A DNA stretch of 49,798 nucleotides from a phage: the sequence record NC_101840.1; one strand, 5' to 3'. Shown here piece after piece: positions 26,582-44,100 of this stretch (position 1 is its first letter; each line of letters starts with the position of its first letter). Below the pieces are notes generated by a model that was given only the letters and a program-made list of their open reading frames with translations, was not told where the DNA came from and ran no database searches. The position numbers and the translations under genes were made by a program.

Positions 26582-26813
26582 TATACCTTCCGCTACCCAA
26601 CTCGGATGATAGATCAGTTTGTTTTAGATACGGTTTCAACTTATTGTCAACATCAGCAGTTGATGCTTTTCCTGCAACATCCTGTTTTAGTGTCGAAACG
26701 TCATTTTTCAGCTTCGTTATATCACCAGGAATAGTAGCAACATCCTGTTTTAGTGTTGAAACGTCATTTTTCAGCTTCGTTATATCACTAGGTATAACAG
26801 TGACTGTAGCCAT
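26553..26813 (-). CDS. tail-fibre segment with perfect 20-aa tandem repeat (86 aa); likely 5' part of the same fibre gene
   Basis: AAGGAG RBS; IPxDITKLKNDVSTLKQDVA repeated twice; ends at stop just after a T5/C6 homopolymer. Confidence 0.5.
   Translation of the reverse strand: MATVTVIPSDITKLKNDVSTLKQDVATIPGDITKLKNDVSTLKQDVAGKASTADVDNKLKPYLKQTDLSSELGSGRYSGSFYPPNW
26676..26795. repeat. two tandem 60-bp direct repeats inside the fibre ORF
   Basis: near-identical 60-mers on the + strand with 2 mismatches. Confidence 0.7.
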
Positions 26814-27104: not shown

Positions 27105-29059
27105 TAAACAATTTCCCCCAATTGATGATCTGTTAGCGCCTTGTGCCATATACGGAAGTTTCTAACGTGCCCGAAAAGATGGCGTTCGCCTGTACTTGTT
27201 TGTCCGCCAATCCTTATAGTAGCCGTTGATACTATATATCTCCATTCCGTTTTTGTTTCGCTTGACATTCTGGCATTACTTACACAACAAGTATTGTAAT
27301 CACTCTTTACTCTCATTCCTATGATCATCTTTTTTAGTTTCGCATTCTCGTTAACCCTTCTGTTTGATTTACCTATATCGCAATAAGGGAATCCATCAGC
27401 ATCGCCTTCGGCAGACCCGAAAGCAAGAATAATTCCCGCACCAGATTGATGACCTCCAGTATCGAAAACACGAGGCGCAGCGTTTGGCGTTATACTCCAG
27501 TTTTTATGAGCTTCCACAAGCACTGTAAACGGCAAATTGTAAAGGTTGTTTTTTATTGGCAATGTAACCATATCGCTTGCCCTTGTTGTCGGACTTTTAT
27601 TAGTTATAATGAATGATGAAGCGCAAGATCCAACCTCTACTTGAGGAGTTGTTAAATCCATAAAGCTATTTTCATCAAAAACTTCTCCTTGTTTATTAAC
27701 GACCTGTATTACCCCCCTAATGTAAGTTGATTCATCAGTAACTTTGTAAACTATTTCTGCAAAAATCCATTCCCCGTCTATGGTAGCGTTCTTTAGCACT
27801 ATGTTTTTTGCGTCAACTCCAGAAGTTGCCACCCCTAAGTTATCGCAATCAATAATAGCAGAAGCAACAGAAGATAAAGGATCTCCCTTGTCAAATCTTG
27901 CTGCAAATCTTACATTTTTCCCCTTAGCCCTAAAAGATATTGTAACTCCATCACCCTTTACAACTGCAATCTTATTTGCAGTAGGTCCAGCTATAACAGT
28001 GTAAGAGCCTACGCCACCTAAATATTCCCCTGGTTTAAATGTTGCATACTTAAACCCCCTTTCATCAGTCTTAGTTTCACCTCTTTCTAATCCTGGATTT
28101 GGATTCCATGATTCAGGCTTATTTGAATTTACAAAATAGTTTGTTCTCTGCCCTTCAATCAAAAGACCATCCTTTTCAAATCTAGGTTCATCAATAGCAG
28201 CATCAGTAAGCAACCCAGACTTATTAATGTAAGTAGCGGTTGATGCACGTTTAAACTTAACAATCTTGTCACCTGGCATCGTGATCTCATCATCACCTAT
28301 GACAATCTTTTTGTATGACGGCGAGAATCCGGTGATCATATCCAGGGAATCATTAAATGGTATCCACACGTCAGGTAGAGGCTGCAATAAATCTTTGTAA
28401 GGTTCTGCGGCCTGTTTTGCGTATTCCTCCGCTTGATCTCGCGCACTTTCAGCGCCTGCCTTTGCGGTGTTCGCAGCATCACGCGCAGTTTCAGCGCCTT
28501 TTCTTGCAGTTTCAGCGCCAGTCTTTGCAGTGTTTGCAGCGTCGCGCGCGGATTCAGCGGCAGCCTTTGCAGTGTCAGCACCTTTCTTGCTATTCTTTGC
28601 ATTTGTTGCGCTTGTCTTTGCGTTATTCTCGCTAGTTTTAGCTGCCTTCTGGCTTGCTGCGGCTGCGTCAGCATTTGTCTTTACGTCTTCCTGGATCTTC
28701 TGTAGCTTATCCCAATCAAAATCCTTGATGATCTCAATAAATCCAGCAAACTCCGATTCCTTCCCCTGGTAATAACGCAACGTTTCCGCTACGTCTTGCG
28801 CAAGACCGTCAACCGTTAACGAGTCATGAAGCAAGATCAGGTAATTTGTCTTCTGTACTACCGCGCCTCCAGTAGTAATTGCGCGAATGCTTGTATCGCT
28901 AATCACTTCTGTAATCACAGCAGCTTGCAAAGGTTGAGCAAGAAAGAAAATAGTTGCACCTGGGCGAATCAAGGTTAATTGCTCACGCCATTTTGTACCG
29001 TAACCAGTTACATAACCTTGCGCGTCCATAGACGCTTGGCCTTGTCTGTAAATCGCCAT
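27104..29059 (-). CDS. side tail fibre protein (about 651 aa)
   Basis: N-terminal Ala/Thr/Lys-rich fibre repeats; GGAGG RBS before ATG 29059 (track start 29083 is GTG). Confidence 0.7.
   Translation of the reverse strand: MAIYRQGQASMDAQGYVTGYGTKWREQLTLIRPGATIFFLAQPLQAAVITEVISDTSIRAITTGGAVVQKTNYLILLHDSLTVDGLAQDVAETLRYYQGKESEFAGFIEIIKDFDWDKLQKIQEDVKTNADAAAASQKAAKTSENNAKTSATNAKNSKKGADTAKAAAESARDAANTAKTGAETARKGAETARDAANTAKAGAESARDQAEEYAKQAAEPYKDLLQPLPDVWIPFNDSLDMITGFSPSYKKIVIGDDEITMPGDKIVKFKRASTATYINKSGLLTDAAIDEPRFEKDGLLIEGQRTNYFVNSNKPESWNPNPGLERGETKTDERGFKYATFKPGEYLGGVGSYTVIAGPTANKIAVVKGDGVTISFRAKGKNVRFAARFDKGDPLSSVASAIIDCDNLGVATSGVDAKNIVLKNATIDGEWIFAEIVYKVTDESTYIRGVIQVVNKQGEVFDENSFMDLTTPQVEVGSCASSFIITNKSPTTRASDMVTLPIKNNLYNLPFTVLVEAHKNWSITPNAAPRVFDTGGHQSGAGIILAFGSAEGDADGFPYCDIGKSNRRVNENAKLKKMIIGMRVKSDYNTCCVSNARMSSETKTEWRYIVSTATIRIGGQTSTGERHLFGHVRNFRIWHKALTDHQLGEIV
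28430..28640. repeat. degenerate short repeats encoding Ala/Thr/Lys-rich fibre segment
   Basis: reiterated GCNGAA/ACNGCNAAA-type codon blocks. Confidence 0.4.
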
Positions 29060-29165: not shown

Positions 29166-30095
29166 TTATAGCAGTGATTCGGGCTTGTAGAGTTTTCTTT
29201 CTACTCCCTGTTTAAAATTATCGTTAACAGGCATCATTATGTCAAGCCCTCTTTCCTCTGCCGCGATTATCACATCACGATCATCTTTCCGGCAGACTAC
29301 GCGCATTCTTCTTTCTCCTTTATATCTATGCGCAACCATTTCAAGATTTGAAGGAGTAAAACAGGCCCACACCTCTTGACCAGTTGATAAATGAACATGC
29401 TGAGAATCAACCCAATCAAGGCACAAATAGATCGTCTTATCTGTACTACCTGTTTTAACAACAGATCCGCGCGTGTAGTCGCGAGCTAAAAACCAATCCT
29501 TTCCATCCTCATCAATGAAAAGCACGTTACACATTTCATCATCCAGCCCGTCATCATGCACAAGGTGACAAGGTAGCGCGTGAATGTATCGACCATCCTT
29601 GACGCCGCAATCATAATGACAATCTTCCGGCGGATATATCCCCTCATAAACGCTTAAAGGTGTGCGATCGAATTTTAATGTTTTTGCCATCACTTTTTCG
29701 CAACATTCATGACTTGCCTGTTTCCCGAACGAGTAACCAGAAGAGCGCGAAGCGCGTTTGTTTGCTCTGATCCTGTAATCTTGTGGCACTTTTCCGAGGA
29801 AGCGGCCCAAAATGTTGATGGCCTCGCTGTAAGGTTCGCCAGTTAATTTCATTAACCAACCGATCCCCGTGTCGTTGCCGCACACGTTGCAGATCGCGCC
29901 GCCGTCGCCCTCTTCATTTAGCTTATCAGTCCATCTAAAACGATCCTTACCGCCGCAGTGTGGGCAAGGTTGATGCTTTTTGTTGAAAACATCGCTATGC
30001 AGTCCGCAAATGCTTTGTAGTGCTTCACGCCATAACCCCTTCATATATGGCAAAACATCTTCTTTCTGATAGGTCATAAAGTTTTCAGTATTCAT
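29166..30095 (-). CDS. DNA primase (zinc-ribbon plus TOPRIM-like)
   Basis: CPHCGGKDRFRW zinc-ribbon motif, acidic DEDGKD TOPRIM-like motif; GAGG RBS before ATG 30095 (track start 30173). Confidence 0.7.
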   Translation of the reverse strand: MNTENFMTYQKEDVLPYMKGLWREALQSICGLHSDVFNKKHQPCPHCGGKDRFRWTDKLNEEGDGGAICNVCGNDTGIGWLMKLTGEPYSEAINILGRFLGKVPQDYRIRANKRASRSSGYSFGKQASHECCEKVMAKTLKFDRTPLSVYEGIYPPEDCHYDCGVKDGRYIHALPCHLVHDDGLDDEMCNVLFIDEDGKDWFLARDYTRGSVVKTGSTDKTIYLCLDWVDSQHVHLSTGQEVWACFTPSNLEMVAHRYKGERRMRVVCRKDDRDVIIAAEERGLDIMMPVNDNFKQGVERKLYKPESLL

Positions 30096-30106
30096 GGAAA
30101 ACCTCA

Positions 30107-30143
30107 ATAAAAAAGCCCAGCAAATATTATCATTTCGCTGGGC
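30107..30143 (-). terminator. weak terminator-like hairpin
   Basis: on minus strand: GCCCAGC ... GCTGGGC with 15-nt loop followed by T-run. Confidence 0.3.
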
Positions 30144-30150
30144 CTTATCA

Positions 30151-30627
30151 TTAGCTATTCGTGCTGTTATCACCTTTGTAGAATCGTCCGCCTGGTTCGT
30201 AGTCTGAATTTTTGACTACGCGCAACATATCGTATTTGTCGCAACGGGTAGTAAGAGGCTTACCGTTAGAATCAAACCGCAGATCTGGACGACAAAATGA
30301 TGCGCGGTATCCTTTGCATCCATTATATTTGTAGTCGTTATGCACCTTTTGTGCTCCAGCGGCTGAAATCATACCACGCTTTCGCCACTGGTTAACGACT
30401 TGCTGAGATACGCGCAGACGTCGAGCCATAGCAGGAACGCCGCCGTAATACTCGATCAGAATGTCAAGGCGAGATTTCAGGCTTGCTTTTACCTCATCTC
30501 GCAGGATAAGAAATCCGGTTCGGTGTTTTCGTGGTTTTTTGTCTTTACCTCGTCGCGTTCCGTTGTTACCGTTAATAGTGCGCTTGTCGATCTCACCCGT
30601 AGATACTGCAATTCGTGCATCTTTCAT
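30151..30627 (-). CDS. HTH DNA-binding protein (Cro/YdaS-like helix-turn-helix)
   Basis: LRVSQQVVNQWRKRG helix-turn-helix signature, basic N-terminal region; GAGGTGA RBS. Confidence 0.5.
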   Translation of the reverse strand: MKDARIAVSTGEIDKRTINGNNGTRRGKDKKPRKHRTGFLILRDEVKASLKSRLDILIEYYGGVPAMARRLRVSQQVVNQWRKRGMISAAGAQKVHNDYKYNGCKGYRASFCRPDLRFDSNGKPLTTRCDKYDMLRVVKNSDYEPGGRFYKGDNSTNS

Positions 30628-30714: not shown

Positions 30715-32712
30715 ATGATTCCAAATATCGAAAAACAAATATCAGCATTAGGCGAGGCAGTAATAAAAAGCATCCAAGAGCGATTCACGGTTGGCAATAT
30801 AGTGCCTTATCCTTATCAGTGCGTTGCGTATGCAGAGATCGCAAAGCGCATGAAAAACTATGAGCATCCTTTCTTTGTTAAGGCTTCTGTATCGGCTGGC
30901 AAAACATTGATGTTTGCGATGGTTGCGGCGCAATGCCGCAAAATGGGATTGAAAATGATGGTCCTTGCTCGCCAGGCTGAAATTGTTGATCAGGATTCGG
31001 AAGAGATCAGCAATCTTGGCGTGCCAAACTCAATCTATTGCGCCGGACTGAAAACAAAAAGCGCATACTTTCCGATCGTAGTCGGTTCTGAGGGCACTGT
31101 AGTAAACGGATTGTTTAAGTCGTTAGGTGATTATGTTCCGCACGTTATCGGTATTGATGAATGTCACCAGGTGGATTGGGAGGATCTCGCGGACGCGATA
31201 GAAAATAATGAATCTTACCAGCAGATGACCACTAAGAAGGATTTGCCTGTACTGATTGGAGAAGAACAGCAATTTGATTCCAATGGCGATCCAATGTTCG
31301 GAACAGGGCGCACACAGTACACCGTAATAATCATGGAAATGATGCGTAGGTGTCGCGAGGCATACGGGCACGAATTGCGAATATTCGGCATGACTGGATC
31401 TGAGTTTCGCGGCGTGGTTCCAATACTGGTTGAAGATAAGAACAAAAAGGGATTCTGGCGTGAGCAGGTGACTAACATAGACACAAACTACTTAATCAAA
31501 TTCGGTTCGGTAGTGCCAACAAACTTCGGCGACGTAGGCGACCTGGGTTATGACCTTTCAGAGTTCGAAGCCAGTAGCGAGGATGGCGTTTCAGACTTTG
31601 ACGCTAAAACATTGCGCAAGATGGAAGAAAAGATCCATCAAGACGCAACAATGACACAGAAAATCATGGCTAAAGTCCATGAGATATGCAAAGACAGGAA
31701 CGGAGTTTTAGTTACATGCGCAGGGGAAAGGCACTGCAAGGAGGCCGCCGCCGCACTGCCGCCAGGCGTTGAATACAGGATCATAACTGGCAAGACTGGA
31801 GATAATCAGCGTAAAGAGTGGCTGAGGGAGGCATACGAGGGAAAAGTAAAATACATCTTCCAGGTACAGGCGCTTACCACTGGCGTTAACGTTCCGTTTT
31901 GGGATACTTCTGTAATACTGAGAAAGATAGGATCTCTAACATTGCTTATCCAGCTTTTGGGGCGCGGCATGCGACTGCTTAAGCAATGGCACATTGAGCA
32001 GGGATTCAAGAAAAAAGATCATCTTGTGTTGGATTTTGCAGGTACTATGGATGAGTTAGGTGATTTGTATTTCGATCCAATCCTTGAGCAAGCGCAATTC
32101 CAAAAGAGATTTACAAACGGGAAAGAGCCTAAGACTTGTCCGATATGTGGAACGCTAAACAGCTTTTACGCTCGCCGATGTATGCACGTAGACGATAACG
32201 GGAAGCGATGTGAGCATTTTTGGACTTACAGAATTTGCGAGGACCAGGTAGATCCGAGAACGAAAAAGATAATCAAGCGCGGTTGTGGAACAAAAAACGA
32301 CGTAGTGGCGAGAGTATGCCGTTGTTGCGATATTTCTCTTGTCGATCCTAACGAGAAGTTAAGCGGTAAGCACTACACCAAAAACGATTGGTGCAACGTT
32401 AAATCTTTCCGCGTTGATATGACGAAAAACCAGAAAGGAATTATTTTTTGCTATGAGCTTGAGGCCAACGGCGACACGTTCAAGGCATACGAAAGATTTT
32501 TCCCTGAGTCAGAAAGCAACATTTGCCGGACGATATGGAGAAAAATAGCATTGCAGCACATACCGGATCGCAAGATTGCTGGTATGGTGGCGAGCTATAG
32601 AAATGCTCGTAAAATAATGTCATACGCTCATCACATCATGCCGCCTGTACGCGTAACGCATCGCAAAAACGGCAAAGGTGAGGATAACATTGCAAAACGG
32701 GAGTTTGTTTAA
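30715..32712 (+). CDS. SF2 DNA helicase with C-terminal Cys-rich zinc-finger region
   Basis: Walker A SAGKT, DECH box (GIDECHQ), later helicase motifs, CPICG/CxxC cluster. Confidence 0.8.
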   Translation: MIPNIEKQISALGEAVIKSIQERFTVGNIVPYPYQCVAYAEIAKRMKNYEHPFFVKASVSAGKTLMFAMVAAQCRKMGLKMMVLARQAEIVDQDSEEISNLGVPNSIYCAGLKTKSAYFPIVVGSEGTVVNGLFKSLGDYVPHVIGIDECHQVDWEDLADAIENNESYQQMTTKKDLPVLIGEEQQFDSNGDPMFGTGRTQYTVIIMEMMRRCREAYGHELRIFGMTGSEFRGVVPILVEDKNKKGFWREQVTNIDTNYLIKFGSVVPTNFGDVGDLGYDLSEFEASSEDGVSDFDAKTLRKMEEKIHQDATMTQKIMAKVHEICKDRNGVLVTCAGERHCKEAAAALPPGVEYRIITGKTGDNQRKEWLREAYEGKVKYIFQVQALTTGVNVPFWDTSVILRKIGSLTLLIQLLGRGMRLLKQWHIEQGFKKKDHLVLDFAGTMDELGDLYFDPILEQAQFQKRFTNGKEPKTCPICGTLNSFYARRCMHVDDNGKRCEHFWTYRICEDQVDPRTKKIIKRGCGTKNDVVARVCRCCDISLVDPNEKLSGKHYTKNDWCNVKSFRVDMTKNQKGIIFCYELEANGDTFKAYERFFPESESNICRTIWRKIALQHIPDRKIAGMVASYRNARKIMSYAHHIMPPVRVTHRKNGKGEDNIAKREFV

Positions 32713-37576: not shown

Positions 37577-37972
37577 TCATGTGATATTGAATTTACGGCG
37601 CAGTGCTTCAAGATCTTGTCTATTAGCTTTTGCCTGGAACAATTCATCATCGCCCATCTCCCCTATTCTAGCCATATCCCTGATCCAGTCGTTGCGCATA
37701 CCATCCAGGCTATACAATTCGAATCCGAAAGGCCGCTTTGACGATCCTTTGGACCAGTATTTTCCGCAGACTCCATCTATATAACCAGCCGTCATCATTC
37801 TTGCGCAAAATTCCTTAGATGCAAGGCTGGCGAACATTCGCGGCGTAAGTCCGGCGGCCCGTGCGAGCCGCTCACATTCTCTATGCTGATAGATAAATTT
37901 GGCTATGTGCTGCCTGTTAAACCAATCGTATGACTCACACCATTTATACAGATCAAGCAAAAACATAATCAT
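37577..37972 (-). CDS. hypothetical protein (131 aa)
   Basis: track ORF; start overlaps stop of upstream ATPase gene. Confidence 0.45.
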   Translation of the reverse strand: MIMFLLDLYKWCESYDWFNRQHIAKFIYQHRECERLARAAGLTPRMFASLASKEFCARMMTAGYIDGVCGKYWSKGSSKRPFGFELYSLDGMRNDWIRDMARIGEMGDDELFQAKANRQDLEALRRKFNIT

Positions 37973-39549
37973 CCCAGCAGTATTGGATTGACAAAAATAA
38001 CACCATTAATCACACAAACATAATTTCTTTCTTCCAGCATTGGCAGTAAGTGCCCTTCTATCCTTTTCATTACGCCAGCCTGACCAACGAAAGGTTTTAC
38101 CTTTCTCGCTGATTCGTACAGGGCGCGGATATTCAGAATCCCTTTATTAGCCTTGCCGTGCCTCGTGATCAATTCAATCAATTTACCCATTTCAGCATCA
38201 TCACCAGCATAACCAGAAGCATTGGCGGCGCTAATGTATGTTTTGCTCAATTCCTGAAACATGATCAACGCCTCTTGCATTGTTTCCACGTCGATCTCTT
38301 TCGACTTCTGCGGGTATCCGGCAGGATTAAACCAGTTACGGATAACATGCAGGACGGAAGCAAGCCTGATCACCTGTTTATCCATTTTACCCAGCGCACC
38401 GCGTAACATTGTATGAGAATACTTTCCTCCGTCTGCAAGATGCGGTTCCATATCCTGGCGAGCAATGTTGAGCACTCGCATAGCTGAACGGCTTATTTTC
38501 AGCGATATATTTGATTCGCTCATGATGTTATGCACCAATTGATAATATTGGGCTTTCAATTCAGAATCCACCGCCTCATAGGTAGAATCACCATTTTCAT
38601 CAATGAATGAGCGACGGCCTAAGAATGATTCCTCTCGGACCAACAAAAAACGCTCACTAACACCGATGCCTCGCGATCCAGCGTCCATGATTCCGCTTAT
38701 CGTTTCATCCTGGGCTATGACGCTCATACATCCAAGCGCGCGAAAACTCATATTATTGTCAGCATTAGCACGGGCAATTGATACGTGACCATTATCCCAC
38801 GCCTTAAGCACTAACTCACTGTTAGTCTTCCTTTCGCTATTTGCATAGGTCAAGCCTAACAGACTGTTAATACTTGTTGCTTCATCAGATATTACGGCAA
38901 AGTTACCTTGCTTGTTGTTGATTTTCGCCAAGCCTTCTGGAGTTGTATCTGAAACAGGAAAAGTTATATCACACATTTTTTCCAGCTTTTCCTCCAGATC
39001 CTCTTTTTCCTGGTATAGAGATTCCATATCAGCGCCGGATCTTTCGCTTTTCATCTCCTTTGCAAGACCTGCCAGCTTTGCCTGTATTTTCTTTCTTTCC
39101 TTGCGGCGTTGCTCGTTGATCTTCTCAACTTCCGCAATCATCGGAGCAATAGCCATGCTGTTGATCGCAGATTTACCAGTTGACGGCGGCTGGCTTGTAA
39201 CGACGTAAAGCGCAGTCGGCTGATCGGTTCCGTGATAGTCAACCGTAAAGCGTCCAAGCATAGCGGCAGAAATGCAGCCGATAAAGTGCATGTAAGCCGA
39301 TGATTCAGGGAATTGAACGGATCGCGCAATGCTGCGTGATAACTTGCCGACAACATCAATATCATTACCAAGAGAAATAACGGGGTAGCGATCGTGACCG
39401 CTATTCACATCCTTTACGTCGCCCCAAAAGCTGGACGACTGGCGATAGCCGTTAGCCTGAATTGATACGCGAACTGGCGAAAGGTTCTGGCTTTCAGCCA
39501 TAGCGATTATTTGTTGTGGAGTTAATTTGTTCGTTTCTAATGAAAACAT
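37969..39549 (-). CDS. P-loop NTPase, SF3-helicase-like (526 aa)
   Basis: Walker A variant QPPSTGKS and Walker B-like VISDEAT; AAAGGAG RBS. Confidence 0.55.
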   Translation of the reverse strand: MFSLETNKLTPQQIIAMAESQNLSPVRVSIQANGYRQSSSFWGDVKDVNSGHDRYPVISLGNDIDVVGKLSRSIARSVQFPESSAYMHFIGCISAAMLGRFTVDYHGTDQPTALYVVTSQPPSTGKSAINSMAIAPMIAEVEKINEQRRKERKKIQAKLAGLAKEMKSERSGADMESLYQEKEDLEEKLEKMCDITFPVSDTTPEGLAKINNKQGNFAVISDEATSINSLLGLTYANSERKTNSELVLKAWDNGHVSIARANADNNMSFRALGCMSVIAQDETISGIMDAGSRGIGVSERFLLVREESFLGRRSFIDENGDSTYEAVDSELKAQYYQLVHNIMSESNISLKISRSAMRVLNIARQDMEPHLADGGKYSHTMLRGALGKMDKQVIRLASVLHVIRNWFNPAGYPQKSKEIDVETMQEALIMFQELSKTYISAANASGYAGDDAEMGKLIELITRHGKANKGILNIRALYESARKVKPFVGQAGVMKRIEGHLLPMLEERNYVCVINGVIFVNPILLG

Positions 39550-39601
39550 TCGTTAGCTTCTCCTTTGTGGGCCGTAAATTTTAACGGCCCAATACTACCC
39601 C

Positions 39602-39623
39602 GTTTTGTCAAAAAGTGCTATTT
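39602..39623 (-). promoter_or_regulatory. conserved junction box (TTGACA variant), sense to leftward ATPase gene
   Basis: on minus strand: AAATAGCACTTTTTGACAAAAC; TAG is stop of upstream gene; hairpin GGGCCGTTAAAATTTACGGCCC follows. Confidence 0.55.
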
Positions 39624-39839
39624 GATCCGCTCTATTGCAACCAGAAGTCGATCAGGCTGGCGGTCGCTGTAGCATTCTCCTGTAATCCCATCCTTAAACG
39701 TAAAGTAAAGCGCCTTATGATATGAAAAACCAATCAGCCAACCTACCGCCGTTTTTTTGATGGGCCTGACTATATCGCCAGGCTTGAAAGTCTTTGTGGT
39801 AGAATGCGTTACTTTGTAACGGTTTTCACTGTTTATCAC
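39618..39839 (-). CDS. hypothetical protein (73 aa)
   Basis: track ORF, coupled to upstream gene. Confidence 0.4.
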   Translation of the reverse strand: MINSENRYKVTHSTTKTFKPGDIVRPIKKTAVGWLIGFSYHKALYFTFKDGITGECYSDRQPDRLLVAIERIK

Positions 39840-40222
39840 AGATATTTGCCCTCAAACAGACAACAGCCGCCAGCAGAGAATCCGACCTCTTCACGGTACA
39901 GGTTCCAGCGGTCGCCGCACTCATCAAAAACATAACCCGCAACGCTTCCAAGCGGTCGCCCTTTCTCGATCTGGTATCGCTTGCCCTGCTTAAAGTGCTT
40001 TTTGCACGGCATGTTATGATCTACAAACGTGCAAAGAACGGTCTTTGTGTTAATGGCGCGGTAATCATCTCGGTTTGCTGGAAGCCAACGGCTACCCTTA
40101 ACAAGCGTCTTAACCTGGAACTCTTCCACCTCGATCACATCATTACTTCCTGCAATCTTCTGATAAACCGTTTTAAAACGGCCTTTCATCAATACGTTGG
40201 TTTCATTACAGATAACATTCAT
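39836..40222 (-). CDS. hypothetical protein (128 aa)
   Basis: track ORF; AAAGGAG RBS. Confidence 0.45.
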   Translation of the reverse strand: MNVICNETNVLMKGRFKTVYQKIAGSNDVIEVEEFQVKTLVKGSRWLPANRDDYRAINTKTVLCTFVDHNMPCKKHFKQGKRYQIEKGRPLGSVAGYVFDECGDRWNLYREEVGFSAGGCCLFEGKYL

Positions 40223-43519: not shown

Positions 43520-44072
43520 GACAGTTAGCACCAGGATTGTGATCGAAATAATCAAAAGTAATCATTCGTAATCAAATCTCATCAAAATGATGATTGCCTT
43601 TGCAAATTTGATGAGAAAAGTAATCACGTTTAATCATTGGTTGCAGGGGAGATAGTGAAACCTTCCCCTCTTGCCTCACTTTTCCGCCTGGCTGTCAGCG
43701 GTTGTTGTCTTTTGTTCACCCCTGTTACCGATTTCAGGCGGCGTGTTTCCGCGCGGTTTTCCGGTGTAGCGAAAACGAAAAAAACAAAAAAATCCCTCTA
43801 TAATACATTGAAAATAAAGATTATTTATTTATATATATCTATAATGTTTTCTTTTTGTTCTCACTGTTACAGTGCTTTTTGTTGGGTGTGGTGTGGTTGT
43901 GTGTTGGTATATATGGATAGTTGCGCGCGCGGCGGATTGCATATGTATATATACTTTTTCCGGCGGATTGCGTTAACAGCGTGAACAGAAAAATAACAGC
44001 CCTGAAATCAATAACTTGCGCATGATTTTGTAGTTTTTTGATATTGGTAACGTTTTGAATACAACAAAAACA

Positions 44073-44100
44073 TTGACACGCACCAAATAGCTTTTATAAT
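44073..44100 (+). promoter_or_regulatory. consensus sigma70 promoter (TTGACA-N16-TATAAT) for rightward early operon
   Basis: perfect -35 and -10 hexamers about 30 nt upstream of ATG 44132. Confidence 0.6.

What the first reader, a model, noticed from the sequence alone, without database searches (positions are those of the whole stretch)
37969..39549. Orphan 526-aa P-loop ATPase with SF3-helicase-like Walker A, far from the replication module
The protein has a Walker A of the PPxTGKS type (QPPSTGKS), as in SF3 helicases and the C-terminal domain of P4-type primases, plus a Walker B-like VISDEAT. It sits in the leftward early block, 8 kb from the primase and SF2 helicase genes. It could be a second replicative helicase or initiator, or a non-replicative ATPase for host takeover or defence evasion.
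Basis: partly seen in the sequence, partly recalled or inferred. Interest (0 to 1): 0.5.

Follow-up and report, generated by a model that had tools for sequence, protein, structure and literature searches.

The report
MCM-like replicative helicase of T1-like phage
The gene is real, but it is an ordinary, already-annotated core gene of T1-like coliphages: a DUF3987-family ATPase whose predicted fold resembles MCM helicases rather than SF3/P4 helicases, and which is most likely the phage's replication helicase.

Summary
The 526-aa ORF at 37969..39549 (-) exists exactly as described, with QPPSTGKS at residues 120-127 and VISDEAT at 219-225. The window is a Warwickvirus (Drexlerviridae). The protein is 100% identical to phage tonn gp43 ("DNA helicase") and to the SECphi27 orthologue, and homologues occur in 925 phage records including T1, so it is not an orphan.

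K126, E223, R260, Q280, R300 and K388 are invariant in 64 relatives of 22-40% identity. The Walker B aspartate is not conserved.

Relatives are fused to DnaG-type, AEP-type or DnaB-N domains. In distant phages the gene heads an operon with the primase, SF2 helicase, RecE-like and SSB genes.

The phage's own primase is only the primase half of a P4-alpha-like protein, and the phage encodes no DNA polymerase. The best reading is therefore a hexameric replication helicase, possibly also the initiator, working with that primase and the host polymerase. This was already predicted for the family in 2016 and is untested in this phage family. Interest is low.

The parts
37969..39549 (-). CDS of the 526-aa DUF3987-family, MCM-like AAA+ helicase (58 kDa, pI 6.6)
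   Evidence: ORF list. Pfam DUF3987 E=1.7e-44 over residues 81-430. phrog_2373 'DNA helicase' E=2.6e-244. 100% identical to phage tonn gp43 and the SECphi27 orthologue. AF2 model pLDDT 87, pTM 0.85.
39259..39549 (-). N-terminal all-helical domain (aa 1-97). There is no MCM-type OB-fold or zinc domain. Role unknown; possibly a partner- or DNA-binding module.
   Evidence: Secondary structure of the model: H11-21, H25-33, H36-41, H66-78, H82-97. It lies largely outside the DUF3987 HMM match, which starts at residue 81.
39169..39192 (-). Walker A / P-loop, Q120-PPSTGK-S127
   Evidence: Position. K126 is invariant in 64/64 diverse relatives, S/T127 in 64/64, Q120 and P121 in 62/64. It follows strand 115-119 and starts helix 126-168.
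38977..39141 (-). Long charged helical-hairpin (coiled-coil) insertion in the helix after the P-loop (aa 137-191, 50% K/R/E/D). Predicted to project from the ATPase core. Function unknown.
   Evidence: Helices 126-168 and 172-191 in the model, pLDDT about 86-96. Composition. Only spurious coiled-coil Pfam and PDB hits fall here.
38881..38895 (-). Walker B strand V219-I-S-D-E223. E223 is the conserved catalytic glutamate; D222 is not conserved.
   Evidence: Strand 216-221 in the model. E223 64/64 and S221 60/64. Position 222 is D 25, S 26, A 10 of 64.
38743..38784 (-). Beta-hairpin immediately before strand 4 (aa 256-269) carrying invariant R260. The position matches the pre-sensor-1 DNA-contacting hairpin of MCM-type AAA+ (inferred).
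   Evidence: Strands 256-258 and 267-269 precede strand 272-279. R260 64/64. Model confidence here is only about 53-65, as reported.
38710..38712 (-). Q280 at the C-terminal end of strand 4, the sensor-1 position (inferred)
   Evidence: Strand 272-279. Q280 64/64 and A279 60/64.
38647..38658 (-). S298-E-R300-F motif directly before strand 5. R300 is the candidate trans-acting arginine finger, comparable to the MCM 'SRF' motif (inferred).
   Evidence: Strand 301-305 follows it. R300 64/64, E299 60/64, G296 64/64. The MCM motif comparison rests on general knowledge of MCM, not on a residue-level alignment made here.
38335..38565 (-). Alpha-helical lid region (aa 329-405) with conserved R383/G384/K388, the candidate sensor-2 region
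   Evidence: Helices 329-343, 354-371, 380-387 and 389-405. K388 64/64, R383 57/64.
37972..38148 (-). C-terminal winged-helix domain (aa about 468-526)
39603..39622 (-). Copy of the genome-wide 20-nt repeat AATAGCACTTTTTGACAAAA, ending 53 nt upstream of the ATG. Probable transcription-control element, shared with the SF2 helicase gene and other early genes.
   Evidence: 16 copies in the window against 0.12 expected. Architecture shown. The same repeat is described for phage TLS with unknown function (PMC11447400).
39569..39590 (-). 7-bp GC-rich hairpin (GGGCCGT/ACGGCCC) between the repeat and the ribosome-binding site (AAGGAG at 39560-39565)
   Evidence: Read directly from the sequence. Comparable hairpins follow most early-region copies of the repeat.
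37577..37972 (-). Downstream 131-aa gene ('YdbL', phrog_2794) whose start overlaps the helicase stop (ATGA). It is a winged-helix protein and a possible DNA-recognition partner.
29166..30173 (-). Phage primase, the presumed partner: Zn-ribbon + Toprim, homologous to the primase half of P4 alpha and lacking any helicase domain. This is the longest ORF; the tonn record annotates a 309-aa product.
   Evidence: Pfam Zn_Ribbon_Prim E=4.8e-15. Matches phrog_510 at profile positions 6-316 of 667 only. BLASTP against P4 alpha residues 20-263, E=2e-15. tonn gp57 'DNA primase'.
30715..32712 (+). SF2 (ResIII/Helicase_C) helicase. In distant phages its homologue lies immediately after the DUF3987 gene or its primase.
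   Evidence: Pfam and PHROG hits. Synteny in L002 and L003.

Best explanation
The gene encodes the phage's own replication helicase, a member of the DUF3987 family. This is an AAA+ ATPase whose core most resembles MCM (superfamily 6). It is preceded by a small helical N-terminal domain and followed by a winged-helix domain.

Inferred mechanism: the protein assembles into a ring, probably a hexamer. ATP is bound by the P-loop (K126, S127) and hydrolysed with E223 as catalytic base. Q280 acts as sensor 1 and R300 of the neighbouring subunit as arginine finger. The R260 hairpin lining the pore pulls on single-stranded DNA so that the duplex is unwound.

The helicase would act with the separately encoded P4-alpha-type Zn-ribbon/Toprim primase, the phage SSB, and the host's DNA polymerase III, because the phage has no polymerase gene. 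Its C-terminal winged helix, possibly together with the translationally coupled 131-aa winged-helix protein, may recognise the unmapped origin. That would make it initiator as well as fork helicase.

Functionally the primase plus this protein equal a split P4 alpha protein in which the SF3 helicase module is replaced by an unrelated MCM-like one.

Shown here: family membership, fold, motif conservation, fusion partners and gene neighbourhoods. Inferred: oligomeric state, residue roles, polarity, partner contacts and origin binding.
For: Family: Pfam DUF3987 E=1.7e-44 and a full-length match to phrog_2373 'DNA helicase'.

Catalytic residues: K126, E223, R260, Q280, G296, R300, E306 and K388 are invariant in 64 relatives of 22-40% identity.

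Replication linkage: relatives are fused to DnaG Zn-finger, DnaB N-terminal, PriCT_2, Prim-Pol and BT4734-like AEP domains. In L003 the gene order is DUF3987, DnaG-type primase, SF2 helicase, RecE-like. In L002 it is DUF3987, SF2 helicase, RecE-like, AAA_24, SSB. These are the same partners that form this phage's replication/recombination module.

Need for a helicase: the phage primase is only the primase half of a primase-helicase. No DnaB-type helicase or DNA polymerase is annotated in tonn or reported for T1/TLS.

Co-regulation: the same 20-nt repeat precedes this gene and the SF2 helicase gene.

Literature: DUF3987 proteins were predicted to be MCM-related replicative helicases with a C-terminal wHTH, and the family includes the essential N4 dns protein (PMC4889955). 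One PriCT-DUF3987 protein is an ATP-dependent 5'-3' helicase that binds its primase and is abolished by Walker A/B mutations (PMC11724360).
Against: There is no experiment on any Drexlerviridae orthologue. I found no essentiality, DNA-arrest or biochemical data.

Sequence HMMs do not link the family to MCM, so the MCM relationship rests on a predicted structure and on the literature.

The MCM N-terminal OB/Zn domain and a helix-2 insert are absent from the model. The putative pore hairpin is modelled at low confidence.

The Walker B aspartate is not conserved.

The gene is not adjacent to the primase in this genome.

No iteron array lies in or next to the gene.

Phages that use host Pol III commonly recruit host DnaB. 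I could not verify T1's dependence on host dnaB/dnaG.
Confidence: 0.7

Rival explanations
1. It is an AAA+ initiator or helicase-loader-type protein, working like ORC/Cdc6 or DnaA/DnaC. It would bind and melt the phage origin through its winged helix and then hand over to host DnaB, rather than travelling with the fork.
For: The C-terminal winged helix matches ORC2/Cdc6 winged helices. A winged-helix protein is translationally coupled downstream. The phage depends on the host polymerase, which normally couples to DnaB (general knowledge). No other initiator is recognisable in the genome.
Confidence: 0.15
2. It is a recombination or repair motor: a branch-migration or fork-remodelling AAA+ helicase like ComM, RuvB or MCM8/9. 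It would serve recombination-dependent replication and concatemer formation together with the RecE/Erf system.
Against: Fusions are to primase and DnaB-N domains, not to recombinases. In L003 the gene directly precedes the primase. The SF2 helicase with the adjacent VRR-NUC gene is the more obvious fork-remodelling candidate.
Confidence: 0.08
3. One reading: an SF3 helicase of the P4-alpha / D5 type.
For: The P-loop has the PPxxGKS look seen in some SF3 proteins (sequence). The phage primase is homologous to the P4 alpha primase half.
Confidence: 0.04
4. A non-replicative ATPase used for host takeover or evasion of bacterial defence.
For: It lies among small early genes of unknown function. 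A neighbouring 128-aa gene is probably a known Mokosh trigger.
Against: No PADLOC match. It is conserved as a core gene in 925 phage records, unlike typical accessory counter-defence genes. All domain fusions and conserved neighbours are replication genes.
Confidence: 0.03

Closest known systems
DUF3987 (PF13148) helicases of phages and mobile elements, e.g. AgaPH (PriCT-DUF3987) and the phage N4 dns protein
   Same: Same Pfam family, well above threshold. Same conserved Walker A lysine and Walker B glutamate. Same C-terminal small winged-helix domain. Same association with primases.
   Different: It is a stand-alone protein without a PriCT, AEP, DnaG or DnaB-N fusion. Its primase is encoded 8 kb away instead of adjacent. 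No biochemistry exists for this clade. AgaPH's 5'-3' polarity cannot simply be assumed to apply.
MCM helicases (superfamily 6 AAA+; archaeal MCM, eukaryotic MCM2-7, MCM8/9)
   Different: Only 10-19% identity and no Pfam MCM hit. The N-terminal OB-fold/zinc domain and the helix-2 insert are missing. There is an extra coiled-coil hairpin after the P-loop helix. The Walker B aspartate is variable. The one characterised family member runs 5'-3', opposite to MCM (MCM polarity from general knowledge).
Phage P4 alpha protein (primase + SF3 helicase + origin-binding domain)
   Same: Best functional analogy. P4 alpha is a phage-encoded primase, helicase and DNA-binding module that, by general knowledge, drives replication with the host polymerase. 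The window's primase is homologous to alpha residues 20-263 (E=2e-15).
   Different: The helicase module is not homologous. The functions are split over two genes 8 kb apart. P4's ori/crr repeats have no counterpart next to this gene.
SCCmec Cch / DUF927 MCM-like helicases of staphylococcal islands
   Different: It belongs to a different Pfam family and is a weaker structural match than MCM itself.

Membership tests
DUF3987 (PF13148) | Match to the family HMM above the curated gathering score | tested here: met
   152.9 bits against a cutoff of 27, E=1.7e-44, residues 81-430 on HMM positions 3-350 of 364. All 64 diverse relatives also match.
DUF3987 (PF13148) | Conserved Walker A lysine and Walker B acidic residue (needed for helicase activity in AgaPH) | tested here: met
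   K126 and E223 are invariant in 64/64. The Walker B aspartate is variable. Mutational requirement reported in PMC11724360.
DUF3987 (PF13148) | [quoted passage not shown] | tested here: met
DUF3987 (PF13148) | Genetic association with a primase (fusion or adjacent gene) | tested here: inconclusive
   Not adjacent here: the primase is 7.8 kb away. Adjacent in relative L003, and fused in P0156, P0227 and others.
DUF3987 (PF13148) | ATP-dependent DNA unwinding | not testable with these tools
   Shown only for AgaPH.
MCM / superfamily 6 AAA+ helicases | AAA+ core and lid fold closest to MCM | tested here: met
MCM / superfamily 6 AAA+ helicases | Match to the MCM sequence family (PF00493) | tested here: not met
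   No hit at E<=10 for the protein or at E<=1 for 64 relatives. No PDB sequence relative.
MCM / superfamily 6 AAA+ helicases | N-terminal OB-fold/zinc-binding domain | tested here: not met
   The N-terminal 97 residues are all-helical in the model.
MCM / superfamily 6 AAA+ helicases | Pre-sensor-1 beta-hairpin, helix-2 insert, and arginine finger before strand 5 | tested here: inconclusive
   A hairpin at 256-269 with invariant R260, and R300 before strand 301-305, fit this pattern. No insert is seen in helix 204-214. The hairpin has low confidence, and no residue-level structural alignment was available.
MCM / superfamily 6 AAA+ helicases | Hexameric ring with 3'-5' translocation | not testable with these tools
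   No multimer prediction or assay was possible. AgaPH is reported as oligomeric and 5'-3'.
SF3 helicases (P4 alpha, poxvirus D5, papillomavirus E1 type) | Match to SF3 sequence families (D5_N, DUF5906, Pox_D5, and others) | tested here: not met
   None at E<=10. P4 alpha itself hits D5_N, DUF5906 and Pox_D5.
SF3 helicases (P4 alpha, poxvirus D5, papillomavirus E1 type) | Profile-level homology to the P4 alpha helicase half | tested here: not met
   hhalign probability 0.3%, with only 19 spurious columns aligned. The template was a single sequence, so sensitivity was limited.
SF3 helicases (P4 alpha, poxvirus D5, papillomavirus E1 type) | SF3-type fold among the nearest structural neighbours | tested here: not met

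The most novel reading that the evidence does not exclude
Drexlerviridae, one of the commonest coliphage families, would replicate with an MCM-fold ring helicase that has been adapted to a bacterial-type replisome. It would pair with a Toprim primase and host Pol III and, like the one characterised DUF3987 enzyme, move 5'-3' on the lagging-strand template as DnaB does. That would be an MCM-like motor running in the opposite direction to MCM. It might also load itself at the origin through its own winged helix plus the coupled 131-aa winged-helix protein, without a dedicated loader.
Probability: 0.3. Interest if true: 0.55.

Novelty: already known. Interest (0 to 1): 0.2.

Why it matters
The finding corrects the picture of how T1-like phages replicate. 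Genome papers on this family usually name only the primase and the SF2 helicase as replication proteins and report no initiator or origin (PMC11447400). The DUF3987 gene is often left as 'hypothetical', including in a T1 record. Recognising it as the probable fork helicase or initiator gives a concrete target in widely used model phages. These include SECphi27, which carries a 100% identical protein. BASEL-collection Drexlerviridae would also be candidates; the coupled downstream gene is present in Bas04 and Bas05. Such studies could address replication, helicase polarity in MCM-like motors, and defence systems that sense replication proteins. As a discovery it adds little. The family-level prediction dates from 2016, one member has been characterised biochemically, and this exact protein is already annotated as a helicase.

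Tried and rejected
Sequence searches against PDB, with the single protein and with a 33-sequence profile, found only coiled-coil noise. No family member has a solved structure in that PDB copy.

Permissive Pfam scans of the protein and of 64 relatives found neither MCM nor SF3 families. NCBIfam returned no hit.

hhalign against P4 alpha was null.

A search for iterons or long repeats in and around the gene (36.7-41.5 kb) gave only scattered short matches. The exception was the known genome-wide 20-nt repeat.

The sigma-70 scan found no convincing promoter upstream of the gene and no enrichment over shuffles.

PADLOC found nothing for the helicase or its neighbours.

Literature searches found nothing specific on Drexlerviridae helicase escape mutants, T1 DNA-negative amber mutants, or T1's dependence on host dnaB/dnaG. 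The supplements of PMC4889955 are not held.

A second profile search of the word-indexed protein database added only six new relatives.

GC skew follows transcription direction and gave no origin signal.

Full report
**Observation.** The minus-strand ORF at 37969..39549 is present exactly as reported. It is 526 aa with an ATG start, and an AAGGAG ribosome-binding site lies 10 nt upstream. QPPSTGKS occupies residues 120-127 and VISDEAT residues 219-225. The ORF is clearly a gene. It matches phrog_2373 ('DNA helicase') end to end at E=2.6e-244 and Pfam DUF3987 at 152.9 bits against a threshold of 27.

**Identity of the window.** Megablast shows the window is a T1-like coliphage of the genus Warwickvirus (Drexlerviridae, Tempevirinae). 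The gene is 100% identical in DNA to phage tonn gp43, which RefSeq annotates as 'DNA helicase'. The protein is 100% identical to that of the laboratory phage SECphi27. tblastn finds the gene in 925 phage records, 911 of them near full length. This includes T1 itself at 58% identity, where it is labelled 'hypothetical protein'. So it is a core gene of the family, not an orphan. The stated separation from the replication genes is correct. It lies 7.8 kb from the primase ORF and 5.3 kb from the SF2 helicase gene, with methylase and exonuclease genes and the lysis cassette between.

**What kind of ATPase.** The second half of the suggestion, a relationship to SF3 or P4-type helicases, is not.
- P4 alpha consists of Zn_Ribbon_Prim, Toprim, D5_N, DUF5906 and Pox_D5. 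None of the last three families hits the window protein even at E<=10.
- A profile-sequence comparison with P4 alpha gives a probability of 0.3%.
- No member of the family has a solved structure detectable by sequence. I therefore predicted the structure from a 33-sequence alignment, obtaining mean pLDDT 87 and pTM 0.85.
- Foldseek independently returns only MCM chains in its top 50.
- No SF3 helicase appears in either list.

This agrees with the published HHsearch-based assignment of DUF3987 to divergent, MCM-related superfamily 6 helicases with a C-terminal wHTH (PMC4889955).

**Anatomy.**
- Helical N-terminal domain, residues 1-97.
- Beta-hairpin 101-111, then strand 1 (115-119).
- P-loop, residues 120-127.
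- A very long helix that continues into a charged helical-hairpin insertion (137-191).
- Helix 204-214, then strand 3 (216-221) ending in S221-D-E223.
- A poorly ordered loop, then a beta-hairpin at 256-269.
- Strand 4 (272-279) ending at Q280.
- The S298-E-R300-F motif immediately before strand 5 (301-305).
- A helical lid (329-405), two long helices, and a winged helix (about 468-526).

**Motif conservation.** In 64 representatives sharing only 22-40% identity with the query, K126, G215, E223, R260, Q280, G296, R300, E306 and K388 are invariant. S/T127 is always present. The aspartate of 'VISDEAT' is not conserved: it is D in 25, S in 26 and A in 10 of 64. By position, Q280 would be sensor 1, R300 the arginine finger (compare the MCM 'SRF' motif), and the R260 hairpin the pre-sensor-1 pore hairpin. 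These three assignments are inferences from secondary-structure order and conservation, not from a residue-level superposition. The hairpin is modelled at low confidence. The MCM N-terminal OB/zinc domain and a helix-2 insert are absent.

**Evidence for a replication role.** The exhaustive search finds 2,635 representatives at E<=1e-3.
- Longer relatives carry the domain behind a DnaG CHC2 zinc finger, a PriCT-2 domain, AEP or Prim-Pol domains and, tellingly, a DnaB N-terminal domain.
- In two distant phage contigs (36-39% identity) the gene opens a replication operon. In L003 the order is DUF3987, DnaG-type primase, SF2 helicase, RecE-like. In L002 it is DUF3987, SF2 helicase, RecE-like, AAA_24, SSB. 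These are the same genes that make up the replication/recombination module of this window. In Drexlerviridae the helicase gene has simply been separated from them.
- The window's primase has a Zn_Ribbon_Prim domain, covers only positions 6-316 of the 667-position phrog_510 profile, and aligns with P4 alpha residues 20-263 at E=2e-15. It is the primase half of a primase-helicase and lacks a motor.
- No DnaB-type helicase or DNA polymerase is annotated in tonn. T1 and TLS are reported to lack a polymerase gene.
- A PriCT-DUF3987 protein has been shown to be an ATP/dATP-dependent 5'-3' helicase that binds its primase and needs its Walker A and B motifs (PMC11724360).
- DUF3987 is also used as a replication-gene marker for PICMI satellites (PMC10803314).

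**Most likely mechanism.** A ring-shaped, probably hexameric, MCM-like AAA+ helicase unwinds phage DNA for the phage primase and host Pol III. It possibly also recognises the origin through its winged helix and the coupled winged-helix protein. Functionally this is a split P4 alpha protein with a non-homologous helicase module. I give this 0.7.

**Rivals.**
- An initiator or loader that recruits host DnaB (0.15).
- A recombination or branch-migration motor (0.08).
- The SF3 reading (0.04).
- A non-replicative takeover or counter-defence ATPase (0.03).

The main gap is the complete absence of experiments in this phage family. I also could not verify classical data on T1's dependence on host dnaB/dnaG.

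**Novelty and verdict.** The protein is a known, annotated member of a family already predicted, and in one case shown, to be a helicase of mobile-element replication. Interest is low (0.2). The residual interest is mechanistic. This would be an MCM-fold motor operating in a bacterial-type replisome, perhaps with DnaB-like polarity and self-loading, in phages that are easy to manipulate.

Noticed in passing
window 3366, 7991, 11741, 23055, 29076, 30638, 33127, 34197, 37441, 39603, 40277, 42194, 43499, 44861, 46311, 48946 (start of each 20-nt copy): The 20-nt repeat AATAGCACTTTTTGTTAAAA occurs 16 times (nine copies match the IUPAC search pattern without mismatch) against 0.12 expected. In early regions each copy points toward the downstream gene. 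It is followed by a short GC hairpin of variable sequence, a -10-like (C/T)ATAAT, a ribosome-binding site and the ATG. The TTGTTA-to-ATAAT spacing of about 23 nt is too long for a plain sigma-70 promoter. The same repeat is reported for phage TLS with unknown function (PMC11447400).
   Followed up: partly
window 39836-40222 (-): This 128-aa ORF (phrog_2684, no Pfam hit) lies two genes upstream of the helicase. It is 98.4% identical to the only exactly-128-aa ORF in the first 50 kb of SECphi27. It is therefore very probably the '128 aa protein of unknown function' reported to trigger the Mokosh type I defence system (bioRxiv 10.1101/2022.08.27.505566).
   Followed up: partly
window 43520-44098: A non-coding region of about 580 bp lies between the divergent early transcription units. 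It contains TAATCA-type repeats at roughly 10-bp spacing (43549-43584 and 43620-43641), an A-tract (43770-43793) and AT-rich stretches (about 43800-43845 and 43905-43955). It also has two copies of CGGCGGATTGC (43930, 43961) and a perfect sigma-70 consensus promoter (44073-44100, +). It is a candidate replication origin and/or operator region. No origin has been reported for TLS (PMC11447400), and I found none reported for other T1-like phages.
   Followed up: partly
window 37577-37972 (-): The 'YdbL' gene is translationally coupled to the helicase through an ATGA overlap. Homologues were found only on Drexlerviridae-type contigs. It is predicted with pLDDT 88 to be a winged-helix protein with invariant C12, H22, H30, R35, R45 and R58. 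The 'YdbL' label in deposited records appears uninformative.
   Followed up: yes
phage records MG065640.1 and 20 other 'Campylobacter phage' entries; OR786094.1 'Streptococcus phage MBBL140': Records attributed to Campylobacter jejuni or Streptococcus agalactiae hosts carry this coliphage gene at about 80-88% amino-acid identity, in genomes of 47-49 kb. This suggests T1-like contaminants or mis-assigned hosts in public data.
   Followed up: no
window 26674-26796 and 28443-28579: There are two 63-bp tandem repeats (2.0 copies at 95% and 2.2 copies at 78%). The second lies inside the 659-aa tail-fibre ORF and corresponds to a repeat_region annotated in tonn gp58.
   Followed up: no
window 37969-39549, residues 441-525; phage record NC_049838.1 6230-6508: The C-terminal winged-helix part of the helicase also matches a separate PHROG (phrog_7327). 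In Klebsiella phage KL only this part is matched (43% identity). Several database entries hold truncated or split versions of the gene (for example P0098, P0119), which suggests frameshifts or assembly errors in some deposited genomes.
   Followed up: no
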